Source: a virus
Virus record (IMG/VR): IMGVR_UViG_3300017987_000005
Span: 1-41,156 of that record
DNA length: 41,156 bases
Direction: 5' to 3' (one strand)
Each line of letters begins with the position of its first letter. The first letter of the stretch is position 1. Both the position numbers and the translations under genes were made by a program. Of this stretch, positions 995-9,874 are shown piece by piece. The notes beneath the pieces are model-generated. The model worked only from the letters and a program-made list of their open reading frames with translations. It was not told the origin of the DNA and searched no databases.

Positions 995-1142
995 TCCAGG
1001 AAAGTAGCGAATAGAGTAACGCTCTGCTTACGCAGTGCTTGCTCTACCATTGAGCGACGGGGGCATTTATAAAACATCTATAATAACAAGCGCCCCCGAT
1101 TAGAATCGAACTAATGAAGTAACTCTACTCTTCATCACTGGA
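995..1142 (-). ncRNA. Y RNA-like (YrlA-type) copy F
   Basis: Paired ends TCCAGTGATGAAG / CTACTTTCCTGGA; GTTACTTC motif; T arm, closed acceptor stem, then D arm (permuted tRNA order); downstream of rsr. Confidence 0.8.
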
Positions 1143-1167
1143 CATCAATTGTAAAAGAACAAAATAA

Positions 1168-1303
1168 AAGCAGGAAAGTAGCGCAAGAAGTACGTCAGTG
1201 CTGGATTCGAACCAGCGTCTCCCGTCTTACGACGGGCGCTCTAGCCACTAAGCTAACCGTCTGCGTATGGTAGACGAAGTAACTCCTCACTTCATCACTG
1301 CTT
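1168..1303 (-). ncRNA. Y RNA-like copy E (tRNA domain in normal order)
   Basis: Same terminal handle; internal D arm, GTAA-capped arm, then T arm. Confidence 0.78.
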
Positions 1304-1320
1304 TTGAAAGAACAAAAATA

Positions 1321-1470
1321 AGACAGGAAAGCGGCGAGAAGAGAGACGCCCCGAAGGGCAAGTGCTCTACCAACTGAGCTACTCTCCCATATAAAAGCGG
1401 GAGAGGCTGGACTCGAACCAGCGACCACTCGGTTAAAAGCCGAAGTAACTCTACTCTATCATCACTGTCT
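1321..1470 (-). ncRNA. Y RNA-like copy D (permuted, Lys-TTT anticodon-like arm)
   Basis: Handle AGACAGTGATGATAG / CCGCTTTCCTGTCT; TCGG-CTTTTAA-CCGA; T arm; CTCTCCC/GGGAGAG acceptor stem; D arm. Confidence 0.8.
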
Positions 1471-1481
1471 TAATATCAAAA

Positions 1482-1546
1482 AGGAGGCAAGTGTCCGGAT
1501 AGGCACGTTTGTCTGATACGAAGTATCCCATCCTATCAGCACTCCT
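1482..1546 (-). ncRNA. Minimal Y RNA-like copy C (handle only, 65 nt)
   Basis: AGGAGTGCTGATAG...GATACTTC...ACACTTGCCTCCT; no tRNA domain. Confidence 0.7.
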
Positions 1547-1559
1547 ATAAATATTAAAA

Positions 1560-1711
1560 TCCGGGCAAGCGGCGTAAAGAGTTTTGTAGTTTGTAGCTAA
1601 GTAAACTTCAGGGGTATCAGCTACATTTCCCCTGACAGGAATCGAACCTGCTATCTCATTTGTTTCAAAAATGTGTTTAACCGAAGTAACTCATTTACTA
1701 TCAGCACCGGA
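1560..1711 (-). ncRNA. Y RNA-like copy B (permuted, GAA anticodon-like arm)
   Basis: TCCGGTGCTGATAG / CCGCTTGCCCGGA; CATTT-TTGAAAC-AAATG; T arm; CAGGGG/CCCCTG stem. Confidence 0.78.
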
Positions 1712-1741
1712 ATAAATTTCATTGTTAAAGAACAAAAGGTC

Positions 1742-1880
1742 TCGGGCAAGTAGTCGAAAAGAGGACTGTATACGCGTGCTGCCATTACACTATCCCCCGA
1801 TATAAATGGGCGGGGGAGAAGGAATCGAACCTTCACCGCGGCATCCGAATTGCGAAGTATCTCTCTTCTATCAGCACCGA
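1742..1880 (-). ncRNA. Y RNA-like copy A (permuted)
   Basis: TCGGTGCTGATAG / CTACTTGCCCGA; T arm GAAGG-TTCGATT-CCTTC; TCCCCCG/CGGGGGA stem; D arm. Confidence 0.8.
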
Positions 1881-2020: not shown

Positions 2021-3523
2021 TCACAGAACAATCTTCTTGATTTCCTCCACGGCATCGCTTCCCTCACGGATAGCGACGAGCATGTCGAAAACCTTGTCAC
2101 TCCATCCGCTGATGAAGTAGACATCGTCGTCCATCACAGACAGCGGAGTCGTTCCGTATCCAGCAAGGTCGAAGAAATACGCTTCCGACTTAGGGCTCTT
2201 CTTCTTGTACTTCTTCCAGATTTCATGGAACTGAGTTCCCGAAGCACGGTGACTCACGCTCCCTTCCATCCCCATGTCACTCCAAAGCTGTGCATCAGAG
2301 AAGAAGAAAACACGGTCAGACTTCACATTCTGCTTGATGAGGTAATCAATTACCTTCCATCCGTTCGTGCTGTATCCGACCTCTCCCTCGATGTCATGCA
2401 GACGCATCGTGTTCGAGAGCGGAGTCTTGCTCGTGAAGCGCTTAACCTTCCAGTCATCTCCGAAGATTCCGACAATCGAATTCTTGGTCTTCAGCTTCAA
2501 GAGCTGACCAAGCAGCAATCCGATGTCGTAATGCTCTACGGACGAACGCGGAGCAATCGGGTCCTGCATTGAACCAGAGACGTCACATGCAATGACGTTA
2601 CGTCCCTCTGCAATCAGCTTCATATTCGAGATACTCAGCTTAGCAGCTTCCTCCAGCGCCTCCATGACAAGCTCTGCGTGGTCATTCTTGTGACTCTCAA
2701 TCATACGGAACGCGCTCAGGTACCTGAACGGGAACTGGCGCGAATTCGCAACAGCCTTCTCGTTCGAAAGGTACGCGCATACCATGTTGATGTGCTTCTC
2801 AGAAACACCGGCATCAAGAATGTTACGCAGGTTCCTCAACAGAGCCATGTAACCAACCTTCTTACTTTCAATGAGCGATTCCCACTTCTGCTTCTTACTG
2901 CGTCCGTCCGGCTTCGACAGGATAGTCTCCCAAGTGAACGGGACTTCCAGGTCTCCGTCCTTGACCTTCCTGAAAAGGTCCGACTGTCCCTTGTCTACCG
3001 GCTTCGGGCGGCAGATACGCAGGGCATCACGCAGGGTAATCTCGTAATCCCTGTTATACTTCGCGAACTGATACTCGTCAAACTTGCTGAACGCGGAAGC
3101 AACTCCCTTACGAATCTGCTTCGCTATAGGCTTCAGCTCCTCGCGTCCGCTCAGCTCCTTGTAGCATGCAAGAATCTCGTAAAGCTCATCCGCACGCTGA
3201 ATGACGCGCTCAGTGACGGTCGAAACCAGTCCCTCCGGCGTATCCAGCTTCGCAAGCTCTACAGCAAGCACAAGCGGTACAGTACGCAGGTACATACTCT
3301 CACGAGCATATACCGCCAGCTTTCCAATGAACTCAGGGCTGACACACTTCATCAGCTCCCGCATCCTGGACATCGTGTTCTTCTCAGAACGATAGAACTG
3401 ATTGTCCAGAACAGTCGTGCAAACAAGCGAGTAAAGCTCCATGTCCTCGGTCATCCCGAAGGCATCGCCTCCCGCGAAGTTCTGCACACGCGACTTACTC
3501 TTCGTCTTCGAATACTTACTCAT
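2021..3523 (-). CDS. rsr: Ro60-related TROVE/vWA RNA-binding protein
   Basis: 500 aa; TROVE motifs (YARESMYLRTVP, FDEYQFAKYNR, TWET, YMALLRNLRN, QFPFRY); vWA MIDAS DVSGSM. Confidence 0.95.
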   Translation of the reverse strand: MSKYSKTKSKSRVQNFAGGDAFGMTEDMELYSLVCTTVLDNQFYRSEKNTMSRMRELMKCVSPEFIGKLAVYARESMYLRTVPLVLAVELAKLDTPEGLVSTVTERVIQRADELYEILACYKELSGREELKPIAKQIRKGVASAFSKFDEYQFAKYNRDYEITLRDALRICRPKPVDKGQSDLFRKVKDGDLEVPFTWETILSKPDGRSKKQKWESLIESKKVGYMALLRNLRNILDAGVSEKHINMVCAYLSNEKAVANSRQFPFRYLSAFRMIESHKNDHAELVMEALEEAAKLSISNMKLIAEGRNVIACDVSGSMQDPIAPRSSVEHYDIGLLLGQLLKLKTKNSIVGIFGDDWKVKRFTSKTPLSNTMRLHDIEGEVGYSTNGWKVIDYLIKQNVKSDRVFFFSDAQLWSDMGMEGSVSHRASGTQFHEIWKKYKKKSPKSEAYFFDLAGYGTTPLSVMDDDVYFISGWSDKVFDMLVAIREGSDAVEEIKKIVL

Positions 3524-7845: not shown

Positions 7846-9015
7846 CTATCCCTTTACAACTGCGAGCGGGGTCAGCTTCTCAACAATCTTCACGAGGTCA
7901 GTCTGCGACTCCATGACTTCATCTATATCCTTATAAGCGCCTGCCGCTTCGTCCAGGTCCTTCTTTCCGCGAATCGAGTGAAGAATCCCCTGGTCGTCGA
8001 GACGCCTCTGCTCCGCAACAAGGTCAAGCTCACGCTGAGCAGCTTTACGCCCCATCTTACGTCCGGCTCCGTGACTACAGGACTCGAATGAATCGCGACA
8101 TCCTTTTCCTTCAACGATATACGACGCAGTTCCCTGCGACCCTGGGATAATCCCGAGCTGTCCCTTCTTCGCAGAAGTAGCTCCCTTACGATGAACCCAT
8201 ACGTTCTTCCCGAAATGGTTCTCAAGAACAGCGTAGTTGTGATGGATATTGATTGCACCATCAAACCCACACGTAGTAATGTCGTTGACAATATCTTTTA
8301 ACGTGTCCATCATAACTCCCCGATTCGCTGCTGCGAATGCGAGGGCATAGTTCATTCCGTCAATATAGAGCCCGGCATCGCGCTCCCCGGTAGGCAGGAA
8401 CGCAAGGTCTTTGTCCGGAAGGTCTGAGAACCATCGGTTACAAAGCTCCAGAGCTTTCTTGTGGAAGAAGTTCGCAATCTTCAGTCCAAAGTTACGAGAA
8501 CCGCTGTGAATCATCAGCCACAGCATCCCTTCCTCACTCTTCTGCAACTCAATGAAATGGTTTCCTCCCCCGAGAGTTCCGAGCTGCTTCGTAGCAGATT
8601 CAAGCTCCTCCCGAACAGGCTGGACGTGGTCAGCAGGTTCGTTGAACACTTCATGTTCAATAGGATTATCCTGATGATTGAATCCAACCGGAATACGGTC
8701 ACGTACTTCCGAAAGAATCTTCTTCAGGGTATCGGTATCGACATCATCAGCTTTAATGTCAGTCTTAACTGCGCACATGCCGCACCCAATATCTACTCCG
8801 ACAGCATTCGGGACAATGACACAATCAGCGGCAAGAACTCCGCCGATAGGCATCCCGTACCCCTGATGACAATCCGGCATCAATGCGATATGACTATGTG
8901 CAAACGGAAGGTTCGACAGGTTCTTCGCCTGCTCGAGCGCTCCCGGCTCAACGTAATCACACCACGACTTTACTGGTAATCCACATCCTTCTTTAATCAC
9001 CCACTTCATCATCAT
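7846..9015 (-). CDS. rtcB: RtcB RNA 3'-phosphate/5'-OH ligase
   Basis: MPDCHQG, VGVDIGCG, LGGGNHFIE, HSGSR, HHNY, HRKGAT, PGSQG, SHGAGR, DEAAGAYK. Confidence 0.97.
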   Translation of the reverse strand: MMMKWVIKEGCGLPVKSWCDYVEPGALEQAKNLSNLPFAHSHIALMPDCHQGYGMPIGGVLAADCVIVPNAVGVDIGCGMCAVKTDIKADDVDTDTLKKILSEVRDRIPVGFNHQDNPIEHEVFNEPADHVQPVREELESATKQLGTLGGGNHFIELQKSEEGMLWLMIHSGSRNFGLKIANFFHKKALELCNRWFSDLPDKDLAFLPTGERDAGLYIDGMNYALAFAAANRGVMMDTLKDIVNDITTCGFDGAINIHHNYAVLENHFGKNVWVHRKGATSAKKGQLGIIPGSQGTASYIVEGKGCRDSFESCSHGAGRKMGRKAAQRELDLVAEQRRLDDQGILHSIRGKKDLDEAAGAYKDIDEVMESQTDLVKIVEKLTPLAVVKG

Positions 9016-9874
9016 TCCTCTCGAATCTATAAATCATTCCTTCTTCGGCCCATCCCGCGAAATCGCTGATATCCTGCTCGTCGTAATTATCGGCATAATG
9101 CATAAGATACATCTTATTCTTCACTTCCTCGGGAAGTCCCTTTAACTCCTCCAATGAAGCGTGAACTGCTCCGGGGAAAAACTGGACATCGTGGAACATC
9201 ACTTCGGACTTATCTGCATACTGGTCAATCAGCTCGGTATCGAATCGAGTATCTCCCGAGACAAAGACGCGACCGTCAATAAAAAGTCCATAAGATACAA
9301 ACGAAGCTTCCCATGCCATTGACTGCTCCGGTATATGCATCGTCCTGAACAGCTCTATTGTCAGGCCATCCAGCTTTACGCTCCAGGTCTCCCTCGGCTG
9401 CATGGTCTTCCACTTCGGTCTGACAATATCAAAAAAGTCCGCCATATGAAGGCACTGACCCCCTCCGTCCGGTGACTCATTCCACTCAAGCCCCCCGCGA
9501 AGCGTCTGGTCCCAAAGTACTCGCTGATACTCCTCGGTTAGTACGATATTGACTTTGGGCTTATCCATGAAACGCATTCCGACGTATCTGTTCATCAAGG
9601 CAATACACTCGAGTCCCCCGACATGGTCAGCATGCGAATGTGTCGGCAACACACATTCTATATTCGTCACGTCCAATCCGGTATTCTTCTTCAGCGCTGC
9701 TGGTCCGGTCATCCCGAAATCGACCATAATATGCTGGTCGCCCTTGACGATGAGAAAATTCGTCTGACAATTCTTCTGTGCAAATGCGGAGCCTACCCCG
9801 ATGAAACAGATATCTAGTTCTCCATCATTCGTCAGCGACAGCTTGTCTGCTACTTTAATCTTTTCCACTAACAC
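8993..9874 (-). CDS. MBL-fold metallohydrolase (RNase Z/phosphodiesterase-like)
   Basis: GVGSAF, VDFG, THSHADH, SGDT, HDVQ, MHY. Confidence 0.88.
   Translation of the reverse strand: MLVEKIKVADKLSLTNDGELDICFIGVGSAFAQKNCQTNFLIVKGDQHIMVDFGMTGPAALKKNTGLDVTNIECVLPTHSHADHVGGLECIALMNRYVGMRFMDKPKVNIVLTEEYQRVLWDQTLRGGLEWNESPDGGGQCLHMADFFDIVRPKWKTMQPRETWSVKLDGLTIELFRTMHIPEQSMAWEASFVSYGLFIDGRVFVSGDTRFDTELIDQYADKSEVMFHDVQFFPGAVHASLEELKGLPEEVKNKMYLMHYADNYDEQDISDFAGWAEEGMIYRFERNDDEVGD

What the first reader, a model, noticed from the sequence alone, without database searches (positions are those of the whole stretch)
1321..1711. Two Y-RNA-like units retain anticodon arms (Lys-UUU and Phe-GAA-like)
Seen: copy D has TCGG-CTTTTAA-CCGA and copy B has CATTT-TTGAAAC-AAATG. 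Each sits at canonical spacing before the T arm, so copy D contains every tRNA-Lys element in permuted order. In the known YrlA fold the Ro-binding stem replaces the anticodon arm. Established: tRNA-Lys(UUU) is the target of the PrrC and PARIS AriB anticodon nucleases. Inference: these are non-chargeable decoys for anticodon nucleases. A less likely alternative is permuted tRNA precursors matured by ligation (RtcB is encoded nearby) and opening of the acceptor loop. Copy D also has a competing ACTTG/CGAGT pairing.
Basis: partly seen in the sequence, partly recalled or inferred. Interest (0 to 1): 0.75.

Follow-up and report, generated by a model that had tools for sequence, protein, structure and literature searches.

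The report
Y RNAs carrying a full anticodon arm
Three of six small Ro-binding RNAs (Y RNAs) encoded by a large phage are complete look-alikes of transfer RNA, anticodon arm included; this arm proves to be a widespread, conserved and so far under-read part of bacterial and phage Y RNAs, not a leftover of lysine or phenylalanine tRNA.

Summary
Units D (1324-1467) and B (1561-1710) belong to a six-unit Y-RNA array just downstream of a phage Rsr/Ro gene. Both carry 5-bp/7-nt hairpins (loops CUUUUAA and UUGAAAC) exactly 5 nt before the T arm; chance predicts 0.006 such hairpins. Unit A has one too (AUUCGGA).

These are not relics kept by two copies. A motif scan blind to the arm found it in 61 of 148 phage units and 48 of 144 bacterial YrlA-like units. 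It lies where Chen et al. 2014 place the 'V' stem-loop.

Un-permuting D and A in silico gives perfect tRNA-Lys(UUU) and tRNA-Arg(UCG) cloverleaves.

The loops keep the anticodon-loop signature (U33 88%, purine-37 97%, A38 90%) and almost only U36A37 or G36G37. The triplet varies: 21 triplets in 60 phage units.

I read these as whole-tRNA mimics on an Rsr handle, mimicking tRNAs as a class rather than Lys or Phe. The decoy and permuted-precursor ideas are already published and remain untested. The phage has separate tRNA-Lys(UUU) and tRNA-Phe(GAA).

The parts
1324..1467 (-). Y-RNA-like unit D: 5' handle 1467-1450, GUUAC 1449-1445, tRNA-like body, 3' handle 1345-1324
   Evidence: Sequence ruler. 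Rfam YrlA 40.6 bits over 1361-1429. Fold.
1430..1442 (-). Unit D upper anticodon stem (C1442-G1430, G1441-C1431, G1440-C1432) and 7-nt loop CUUUUAA 1439-1433 (triplet UUU 1437-1435)
   Evidence: In 77 homologous units the 31-39 pair covaries (AU34 CG29 UA6 GC5), 30-40 is GC in 73, and 29-41 is CG in 63.
1428..1429 (-). Unit D positions 42-43 (A1429, G1428). They pair with U1361 and C1362 after the D arm, forming the lower anticodon stem.
   Evidence: 42 with the 2nd post-D nt is AU34 GC31 CG9; 43 with the 1st post-D nt is GC51 CG12 UA8 AU3. 98% of cells are paired.
1361..1363 (-). Unit D A26 (1363) and the 5' strand of the lower anticodon stem (C1362, U1361)
1364..1427 (-). Unit D tRNA body: variable loop UGGUC 1427-1423, T arm 1422-1406, closed 7-bp acceptor hairpin 1405-1382 (10-nt loop 1398-1389, no CCA), U8A9 1381-1380, D arm 1379-1364
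   Evidence: Un-permuted sequence is called tRNA-Lys(ttt) by ARAGORN.
1348..1359 (-). Unit D extra UUCG-capped hairpin inserted in the 3' linker between the tRNA body and the handle
   Evidence: Absent from most homologues.
1561..1710 (-). Y-RNA-like unit B: handle, GUUAC-UUCG-GUUAA local hairpin 1690-1677, self-contained anticodon-like arm, T arm 1651-1635, 6-bp closed acceptor-like hairpin 1634-1609, degenerate D region
   Evidence: (tRNA model 27.3 bits; YrlA 18.5 bits)
1657..1673 (-). Unit B anticodon-like arm: CAUUU / UUGAAAC / AAAUG (triplet GAA 1666-1664), followed by 5-nt AGAUA
   Evidence: Present in the minimum-free-energy fold. Homologous long-linker units L127 (loop CUUCUAA) and L027 (loop CUGCAAC) keep a 5-bp/7-nt arm.
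1742..1880 (-).
   Evidence: (YrlA 20.8 bits). Un-permuted sequence is called tRNA-Arg(tcg).
1839..1853 (-). Unit A arm: upper stem GCA 1853-1851 / UGC 1843-1841, loop AUUCGGA 1850-1844. C1840 and G1839 pair with G1773 and C1774 after the D arm.
1807..1810 (-). Unit A acceptor loop encodes discriminator C1810 plus CCA 1809-1807, directly after the 7-nt acceptor 3' strand
   Evidence: The same placement is enriched family-wide: 21/143 phage units at this offset against 1-4 at offsets 6, 7 and 9-12 (offsets 4 and 5 have 6 and 14).
1482..1545 (-). Unit C, a minimal Y RNA (handle only, no tRNA body), lying inside the finding's coordinates
2021..3523 (-). Rsr/Ro60 orthologue (TROVE domain) immediately upstream of the array on the same strand
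   Evidence: Pfam TROVE E 3.9e-34
7846..9015 (-). RtcB RNA ligase
   Evidence: Pfam RtcB E 4.4e-114

Best explanation
Units A, B and D are YrlA-class Y RNAs. Each has a Ro/Rsr-binding handle, formed by the 5' and 3' ends, that carries a circularly permuted tRNA body with a closed acceptor stem.

They differ from the crystallised Salmonella YrlA, which has no anticodon loop. Here the body is a complete tRNA mimic. In A and D the anticodon stem is built from three strands: two base pairs (27-43, 28-42) use the strand that follows the D arm, and three pairs (29-41, 30-40, 31-39) plus a 7-nt loop come from a small hairpin on the 5' side. The handle therefore leaves the body through a gap between nt 28 and 29. 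In B the arm is a self-contained 5-bp hairpin.

Selection keeps the generic anticodon-loop architecture (Y32, U33, purine 37, A38) and, in phages, almost only U36A37 or G36G37. In real tRNAs these dinucleotides go with t6A37 and m1G37. The triplet itself is free to differ.

Shown: the anatomy, its conservation and its covariation.

Inferred: the RNP presents a non-decoding whole-tRNA look-alike to proteins that read tRNA shape together with the anticodon loop. It would act as a competitive ligand or tether in the tRNA damage and repair conflict, consistent with this phage also encoding Rsr, RtcB and 43 tRNAs. The mimicry would be of tRNAs as a class, not of Lys or Phe specifically.
For: Context:
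- A TROVE/Rsr gene lies directly upstream on the same strand, and RtcB is nearby.
- Only these six units in the 183.6-kb genome combine both handle motifs.
- Rfam YrlA gives sub-threshold hits to D, A and B.

Family-wide presence:
- A scan anchored only on GUUACUUCG plus the T loop gives a gap-length histogram peaking sharply at 21 nt: 61/148 phage and 48/144 bacterial matches.
- Rsr lies within the fetched flank in 42/58 phage and 33/43 bacterial loci of this class.

Structure:
- On 77 units the composite model has 97.7% of cells paired, against 81% when shuffled and at most 43% when slid.
- Three pairs show four Watson-Crick types.
- Extending the post-D helix to 4 bp fails: pair 40-30' is paired in 8 of 77.
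- A scan that did not require the 5' motif recovered the same composite arm with other upper stems (GCA/UGC, CGC/GCG, AGA/UCU, UCC/GGA). In these units the 5' flank cannot pair with 42-43.
- Un-permuting D and A by this model yields perfect cloverleaves.

Loop signature:
- In 60 phage units: U33 53, R37 58, A38 54, N36 = U 40 / G 19, and 36-38 = UAA 37 / GGA 15.
- Real tRNAs from the same loci have UA 33%, CA 21%, AA 19%, GG 12%.
Against: - No expression, Rsr-binding, modification or cleavage data exist for this phage.
- Rfam YrlA is not reached at gathering score (40.6 against 69 bits).
- Nearest-neighbour folding does not prefer the composite stem: D gives 5-bp hairpin -49.4, composite -46.2, MFE -50.5 kcal/mol.
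- The 5' UU of the hairpin was fixed by my search pattern, so its lack of covariation is only indirectly tested, through.
- The UA/GG restriction is looser in bacterial copies: 17 of 48 have other 36-38 triplets. It may also partly reflect shared descent.
- RtcB is rarely within the fetched flank of phage homologues (2/58), so a link to RNA repair is not general.
- The Y triplet does not track tRNA genes of the same locus (8 matches against 6.4 expected, p 0.25).
Confidence: 0.6

Rival explanations
1. First reader's main reading. D and B are non-chargeable decoys aimed specifically at anticodon nucleases that cut tRNA-Lys(UUU) (PrrC, PARIS AriB) and a Phe-directed nuclease. They would soak up or inhibit the nuclease while the phage's own tRNAs sustain translation.
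For: - The loops are canonical anticodon loops with UUU and GAA.
- The phage also carries replacement tRNA-Lys(UUU), Lys(CUU) and Phe(GAA) plus RtcB.
- PARIS AriB and a rescuing viral tRNA are the subject of PMC11464382 and PMC12409363 (titles and abstracts).
- Competitive inhibition of an anticodon nuclease by the YrlA tRNA-like domain was proposed in PMC7790460.
- Arrays carry units with different triplets, which fits a panel of decoys.
Against: - The triplet is not conserved among homologous units: 21 triplets in 60, with GUU commonest.
- The arm is equally present in bacterial chromosomes across many phyla, where an anti-defence decoy is not the obvious role.
- Position 36 is restricted to U or G whatever nuclease might be targeted.
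- There is no association between the triplet and co-encoded tRNAs.
- A stoichiometric decoy would have to compete with abundant cellular tRNA (inference).
Confidence: 0.12
2. The hairpin is only the 'V' (variable-region) stem-loop already described for YrlA. On this view it is a structural brace of a nuclease-resistant fold, and its anticodon-like loop is inherited from a tRNA ancestor and has no reader.
For: [quoted passage not shown] They also suggest the tRNA fold may simply protect the RNA.
- Many family members lack the arm or have tetraloop-capped or long hairpins at that site.
- Window units E and F cap their anticodon stems with GUAA tetraloops.
Against: - A full class-I variable loop (AGGUC or UGGUC in 34 of 60 units) follows the hairpin, so it occupies the anticodon position, not the variable one.
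- U33, R37 and A38 are kept at 88-97%, and 36-37 is coupled as UA or GG, while positions 34-35 vary freely. This looks like selection on the loop, not drift.
- The 31-39 pair covaries through all four Watson-Crick types.
Confidence: 0.2
3. Permuted tRNA precursors. The handle is excised, RtcB joins nt 28 to 29, and the acceptor loop is opened by RNase P and 3' trimming. This would release decoding tRNA-Lys, tRNA-Arg(UCG) and tRNA-Phe.
For: - Un-permuted D and A are flawless cloverleaves.
- Unit A and its look-alike in L112 encode N73-CCA in the acceptor loop, and this placement is enriched family-wide.
- RtcB is encoded 6 kb away.
- M. smegmatis YrlA is cut by RNase P and receives CCA in vivo.
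- Processing of YrlA towards canonical tRNA was suggested in 10.1101/312249.
- The phage has no tRNA-Arg(UCG) of its own.
Against: - No endonuclease for such a junction is reported in bacteria, and I looked for no bulge-helix-bulge motif.
- Many homologues close the acceptor stem with UUCG or GNRA tetraloops and have no CCA.
- Unit D has no CCA.
- Triplets ending in A or C are almost absent, which makes no sense for a decoding set.
- The phage already has standard tRNA-Lys(UUU) and Phe(GAA).
- The handle carries conserved Rsr-type motifs and sits beside Rsr.
Confidence: 0.03
4. Chance hairpins in AT-rich spacer sequence next to a T arm.
For: Unit B's stem is AU-only. The whole-unit fold z-scores are weak: D -1.6, B -0.4.
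Against: Chance predicts 0.006 such hairpins against 2-3 observed. The arm is conserved with covariation in more than 100 homologues.
Confidence: 0.01

Closest known systems
YrlA (Rfam RF02553), the tRNA-like bacterial and phage Y RNA bound by Rsr/Ro60 (Chen et al. 2014, PMC4201824; Wang et al. 2018, 10.1101/312249, PDB 6cu1)
   Same: - Encoded beside Rsr on the same strand.
- Handle formed by the two ends.
- Permuted order T arm, closed acceptor stem, D arm.
- Conserved YUAY (UUAC/AUAC here).
- A stem-loop 'V' upstream of T in many members.
- The pairs 42-28, 43-27 and 44-26 are the start of Rfam's consensus anticodon stem (alignment).
   Different: - The crystallised Salmonella YrlA 'lacks the anticodon loop'. 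Its anticodon stem runs straight into the handle.
- Here, and in about 40% of units found by the motif scan, a 3-bp/7-nt hairpin completes a 5-bp anticodon stem with a canonical anticodon loop. The handle exits between nt 28 and 29.
- In the text I could read, the literature calls this element a variable arm.
- The window units do not reach Rfam's gathering score.
Circularly permuted tRNA genes of Cyanidioschyzon merolae and some archaea (PMC3978253)
   Same: The 3' half comes before the 5' half, and the acceptor ends are joined by a loop. All tRNA elements are present. Unit A even encodes CCA in that loop.
   Different: Those are matured through a bulge-helix-bulge junction by a splicing endonuclease and a ligase into decoding tRNAs. 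Here the joining helix is a conserved Ro-binding handle next to an Rsr gene. No such endonuclease is known in bacteria or phages, and no processing evidence exists.
Phage-encoded nuclease-resistant tRNAs, such as the T5 tRNA-Lys that neutralises PARIS (PMC11464382)
   Same: A phage RNA with a Lys anticodon loop in a genome rich in tRNA genes. A plausible role in the tRNA-cleavage arms race.
   Different: Those are ordinary chargeable tRNAs that replace the cleaved host tRNA. The units here are permuted, closed at the acceptor end (D, B) and fused to a Ro-binding handle.
[quoted passage not shown]
   Same: A 7-bp acceptor stem as in units A and D. This is a precedent for opening the acceptor loop while the RNA stays Rsr-bound.
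   Different: Processing of the phage units is untested. Unit A encodes the CCA, whereas in M. smegmatis CA is added after cleavage.

Membership tests
YrlA / bacterial Y RNA | Encoded within a few kb of, and on the same strand as, an Rsr/Ro60 (TROVE) gene | tested here: met
   TROVE ORF at 2021-3523(-), E 3.9e-34. The units lie at 997-1880(-), directly downstream.
YrlA / bacterial Y RNA | Permuted tRNA-like domain: T arm, then closed acceptor stem-loop, then D arm | tested here: met
   Units A, D and F. Un-permuted D and A are called tRNAs. Unit B has a T arm and a closed acceptor-like hairpin, but its D arm is degenerate.
YrlA / bacterial Y RNA | 5' and 3' ends pair into a handle carrying the Rsr-contact motif (GNCGAAN0-1G) and the YUAY motif | tested here: inconclusive
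   The handles pair in all folds. YUAY is present as UUAC or AUAC. The 5' motif reads GUGAUGA(A/U)AG or GUGCUGAUAG, which is similar to the published consensus but not identical.
YrlA / bacterial Y RNA | Reaches the Rfam RF02553 gathering score (69 bits) | tested here: not met
   Best hit is 40.6 bits for unit D (E 3e-7). A scores 20.8 and B 18.5. No related phage locus reached the threshold either.
YrlA / bacterial Y RNA | Bound by Rsr in vivo | not testable with these tools
   Needs co-immunoprecipitation.
Functional tRNA (RF00005) | Contiguous cloverleaf with free, paired 5' and 3' acceptor ends | tested here: not met
   The acceptor stem is closed by a loop and the order is permuted. The ARAGORN and Rfam hits at 1397-1469 use a D-armless mis-fold with 2-4 acceptor mismatches.
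Functional tRNA (RF00005) | 5-bp anticodon stem, 7-nt loop with U33 and purine 37, then a 4-5 nt variable loop before the T arm | tested here: met
   Units D, B and A. Family statistics.
Circularly permuted tRNA gene | Junction helix with a bulge-helix-bulge motif, and a splicing endonuclease in the genome | not tested
   I made no search for a bulge-helix-bulge motif or an EndA homologue. The literature reports none in bacteria.
Circularly permuted tRNA gene | Acceptor loop carries a discriminator plus CCA or processing sites | tested here: inconclusive
   Unit A: C-CCA at 1810-1807. Unit D: G then CUU, no CCA. Family: 21/143 phage units have N73-CCA.
Anticodon-nuclease decoy | Binds or is cleaved by a defined anticodon nuclease and relieves its toxicity | not testable with these tools
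   Needs in vitro cleavage and competition assays and phage genetics.

The most novel reading that the evidence does not exclude
A large branch of bacterial and phage Y RNAs are Rsr-tethered, full-length tRNA mimics with an exchangeable 'anticodon'. They would come in two paralogous classes, defined by the determinants of the two universal position-37 modifications (U36A37 for t6A, G36G37 for m1G). Some (unit A, with encoded CCA) would be opened at the acceptor loop to give two-piece, CCA-ended molecules that could be modified, bound by synthetases or anticodon nucleases, or even charged. This would make the Ro RNP a programmable sensor or sponge for anticodon-loop-directed enzymes.
Probability: 0.15. 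Interest if true: 0.8.

Novelty: new variant of a known kind. Interest (0 to 1): 0.55.

Why it matters
What the tRNA-like domain of bacterial Y RNAs binds is an open question. The solved structure has no anticodon loop, so thinking has centred on the T/D elbow.

A large share of YrlA-like RNAs actually present a complete anticodon stem-loop under selection for anticodon-loop architecture. If that holds up, the list of candidate partners narrows to proteins that read that loop: anticodon nucleases, position-37 modification enzymes, synthetases and RtcB-type repair.

That makes the question testable with defined loop mutants. For phage biology it adds a possible third tool in the tRNA arms race, beside replacement tRNAs and RNA ligases.

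Tried and rejected
- Rfam at gathering threshold found no YrlA in the window or in 16 Rsr-related phage loci. Only the E-value mode showed sub-threshold hits.
- blastn of the whole array against 50,697 phage records gave only T-arm-sized matches.
- Association between the Y-RNA triplet and tRNA anticodons in the same locus was not significant: 8 matches against 6.4 expected, p 0.25.
- Thermodynamic folding with constraints could not choose between the 5-bp hairpin and the composite stem.
- The T-loop-plus-D-arm scan meant to be unbiased returned mostly ordinary tRNA arrays. Only about 9 genuine permuted units were usable.
- Extending the post-D helix to 4 bp (the canonical hairpin-less YrlA fold) is rejected for this class: pairs 41-29' and 40-30' are mostly unpaired.
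- The 2020 Annual Review on bacterial Ro60 and Y RNAs (PMC10870794) is not held. I therefore cannot exclude that the anticodon-like nature of the V arm is mentioned there.

Full report
**Setting**

The window is the left end of a 183,648-bp phage genome with direct terminal repeats. All genes in the window lie on the minus strand. An Rsr/Ro60 orthologue (TROVE domain, E 3.9e-34) occupies 2021-3523(-). An RtcB ligase lies at 7846-9015(-), with a metallo-beta-lactamase/Apyc1-like protein next to it.

tRNA arrays flank the region. ARAGORN makes 45 calls on the whole genome. Two of them are the tRNA-like bodies of units D and E, which leaves 43 tRNA genes.

Between Rsr and the next tRNA lie six units on the minus strand. 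They share a 5' strand (GUGAUGA.. or GUGCUGAUAG.., then G(U/A)UACUUC) and a 3' strand (..CUU(G/U)CC). In transcription order they are:
- A, 1742-1880
- B, 1561-1710
- C, 1482-1545
- D, 1324-1467
- E, about 1168-1300
- F, 997-1141

These are the only places in the genome that combine both motifs. Rfam's YrlA model hits D (40.6 bits, E 3e-7), A and B below its gathering score.

Yes. Reading the ruler:
- Unit D has UUCGG / CUUUUAA / CCGAG at 1444-1428. Then come 5 nt (UGGUC), the T arm, a closed 7-bp acceptor hairpin and a D arm.
- Unit B has CAUUU / UUGAAAC / AAAUG at 1673-1657, then 5 nt (AGAUA) and the T arm.
- The ACUUG/CGAGU alternative in D is also present.

A random 17-mer of local composition gives such a hairpin with U33 and R37 at a frequency of 6e-4. 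That predicts 0.006 over the possible sites, against two observed.

**Is it conserved?**

I found Rsr relatives in viral contigs. Units in L003 and L004 align base for base with D but carry loops CUCGUAA and CAUGUAA and a covarying closing pair.

I then scanned viral contigs with a pattern that fixes only GUUACUUCG and the T loop and leaves 3-33 nt free between them.
- Among 148 matches the gap length peaks sharply at 21 nt (61 matches; 17 at 20 nt and 8 at 22 nt). This is the unit D layout.
- The same scan of one genome per prokaryotic species gave 48 of 144 matches at 21 nt. They span Bacteroidota, Acidobacteriota, Actinomycetota, Alphaproteobacteria, Bacillota and others.
- An Rsr homologue lies within the fetched flank in 42 of 58 phage loci and 33 of 43 bacterial loci of this class.

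The arm is therefore a general trait of YrlA-like Y RNAs, not something two copies in this phage 'retain'. It lies where Chen et al. [quoted passage not shown] They read it as the variable arm.

**What structure do the homologues support?**

I aligned 77 gap-21 units that have a recognisable D arm (alignment A1). Three models were tested.

1. Composite model.
   - Positions 43 and 42 pair with the first two nucleotides that follow N26 after the D arm. The pair types are GC51 CG12 UA8 AU3 and AU34 GC31 CG9.
   - The small 5' hairpin supplies 31-39 (AU34 CG29 UA6 GC5), 30-40 (GC in 73) and 29-41 (CG in 63).
   - In 12 of the 14 units where 29-41 cannot form, C41 pairs instead with a G at the third post-D position (pair 20-117).
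   - Overall 97.7% of cells are paired, against 81% after shuffling and at most 43% after sliding.
2. Its two outer pairs are U.G or U-A in 73% and 86% of units and cannot covary, because my pattern fixed those bases.
3. The hairpin-less YrlA helix extended to 4 bp. This fails: 8 of 77 units are paired at the fourth pair.

A second scan anchored on the T loop and D arm returned few usable units. Five of about nine genuine permuted units show the same composite arm with unrelated upper stems. In those units the 5' flank cannot pair with 42-43, while the post-D strand does.

The handle leaves the tRNA body between nt 28 and 29.

Un-permuting D and A in silico by this model gives sequences that ARAGORN draws as flawless tRNA-Lys(ttt) and tRNA-Arg(tcg) (I appended CCA for the program). 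Energy calculations alone do not discriminate between the models.

Unit B belongs to a rarer long-linker class. In it, GUUAC-UUCG-GUWAA forms its own tetraloop hairpin and the anticodon-like arm is self-contained. Homologues L127 (loop CUUCUAA) and L027 (loop CUGCAAC) keep 5 bp and 7 nt, but several homologues lack a D arm.

**What is selected in the loop?**

In 60 distinct phage units:
- Position 32 is C or U in 49.
- Position 33 is U in 53.
- Position 37 is a purine in 58.
- Position 38 is A in 54.
- Positions 34-35 take any base.
- 21 different triplets occur. GUU is commonest at 13; UUU occurs 3 times.
- Position 36 is U (40) or G (19) and is coupled to 37: UAA 37, GGA 15.

The 657 real tRNAs predicted in the same loci have UA 33%, CA 21%, AA 19%, GG 12% and GA 8%. 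The Y-RNA loops therefore obey general anticodon-loop rules but are a restricted subset.

From general knowledge, U36A37 is the determinant for t6A37 and G36G37 is the determinant for TrmD m1G37. This is a lead, not a test.

Bacterial copies show the same trend more loosely. Where an array has two gap-21 units, one is of each class in L029, L112 and L138. The window fits this, with D in the UAA class and A in the GGA class. Shared descent inflates all these counts.

The phage does have separate tRNA-Lys(UUU) at 180774-180850, Lys(CUU) and Phe(GAA). The hairpin is conserved in homologues, but the Lys and Phe identity is not.
- The triplet does not track the tRNA genes of the same locus.
- The arm is as common in bacterial chromosomes as in phages.
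- 'Non-chargeable' is not safe. Unit A encodes C-CCA (1810-1807) right after its 7-nt acceptor 3' strand, as does a look-alike unit in L112. N73-CCA at that offset occurs in 21 of 143 phage units, against 1-4 at offsets 6, 7 and 9-12 (offsets 4 and 5 have 6 and 14). M. smegmatis YrlA, which has a 7-bp acceptor stem, is cut by RNase P and receives CCA in vivo.
- Both mechanistic ideas are already in print for YrlA in general. Hughes et al. 2020 proposed competitive inhibition of an anticodon nuclease. Wang et al. 2018 proposed processing like permuted tRNAs.

**Best reading and its limits**

Shown: units A, B and D are YrlA-class Y RNAs whose tRNA-like domain includes a conserved, covarying anticodon stem-loop.

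Inferred: the Rsr RNP presents a whole-tRNA look-alike to proteins that read the anticodon loop, mimicking tRNAs as a class.

I put about 0.85 on the anatomy and about 0.35 on the 'competitive ligand or tether for anticodon-loop readers' function. The combined confidence is 0.6. For the rivals:
- specific Lys/Phe decoy: 0.12
- purely structural V arm: 0.2
- true permuted-tRNA precursors: 0.03

**Novelty**

The objects are members of a known family, and the hairpin's position is the published V stem-loop. The following appear new in the literature I could read:
- the three-strand anticodon stem;
- the family-wide anticodon-loop signature with the UA/GG restriction;
- the fact that un-permuting gives perfect cloverleaves.

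The 2020 Annual Review could not be consulted.

Noticed in passing
Its lower stem (C1840, G1839) pairs with G1773 and C1774. Un-permuted, it is called tRNA-Arg(tcg), an anticodon absent from the phage's own tRNA set.
   Followed up: yes
window 1807-1810 (-); L112 near 2870-2960: Unit A's acceptor loop encodes discriminator plus CCA directly after the 7-nt 3' strand, followed by UUUAUAU. A similar unit in L112 has A-CCA. N73-CCA at this offset occurs in 21/143 phage and 10/143 bacterial units. This hints that some Y RNAs are opened to a CCA end.
   Followed up: partly
window 997-1141 (-), hairpin 1021-1038: Unit F joins the handle at a different point. It has no arm before the T arm. Instead a GUAA-capped 7-bp arm follows the D arm, in the natural anticodon-arm position, so the break falls between the anticodon arm and the variable loop.
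   Followed up: partly
window 1192-1262 (-) within unit E (about 1168-1300): Unit E embeds a non-permuted tRNA-like body (Rfam tRNA 44 bits). Its anticodon stem is capped by a GUAA tetraloop, and the handle is attached at the acceptor end.
   Followed up: partly
alignment A1 and phage/bacterial loci L017-L256: The Y-RNA anticodon-like loops are almost restricted to U36A37A38 or G36G37A38, and arrays tend to hold one unit of each class. Real tRNAs of the same loci have CA and AA at 36-37 in 40% of cases. Unexplained; it may point to the t6A or m1G machinery, or to another reader.
   Followed up: partly
window 1348-1359 (-): Unit D carries an extra GCCC-UUCG-GGGC hairpin in the 3' linker between the tRNA body and the handle. 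Most homologues have a 4-7 nt single-stranded linker there.
   Followed up: no
window 8993-9874 (-): A metallo-beta-lactamase protein matching the anti-Pycsar Apyc1 family (119 bits) sits immediately upstream of RtcB and overlaps it. tRNase Z belongs to the same fold, so a role in RNA 3' processing rather than cyclic-nucleotide degradation is conceivable.
   Followed up: no
genome G000 178191-183558 and 164149-164236 (outside the window): The phage encodes 43 tRNA genes covering nearly all amino acids, including three Met(CAT) and Ile(TAT). The array continues across the genome ends into the window.
   Followed up: partly
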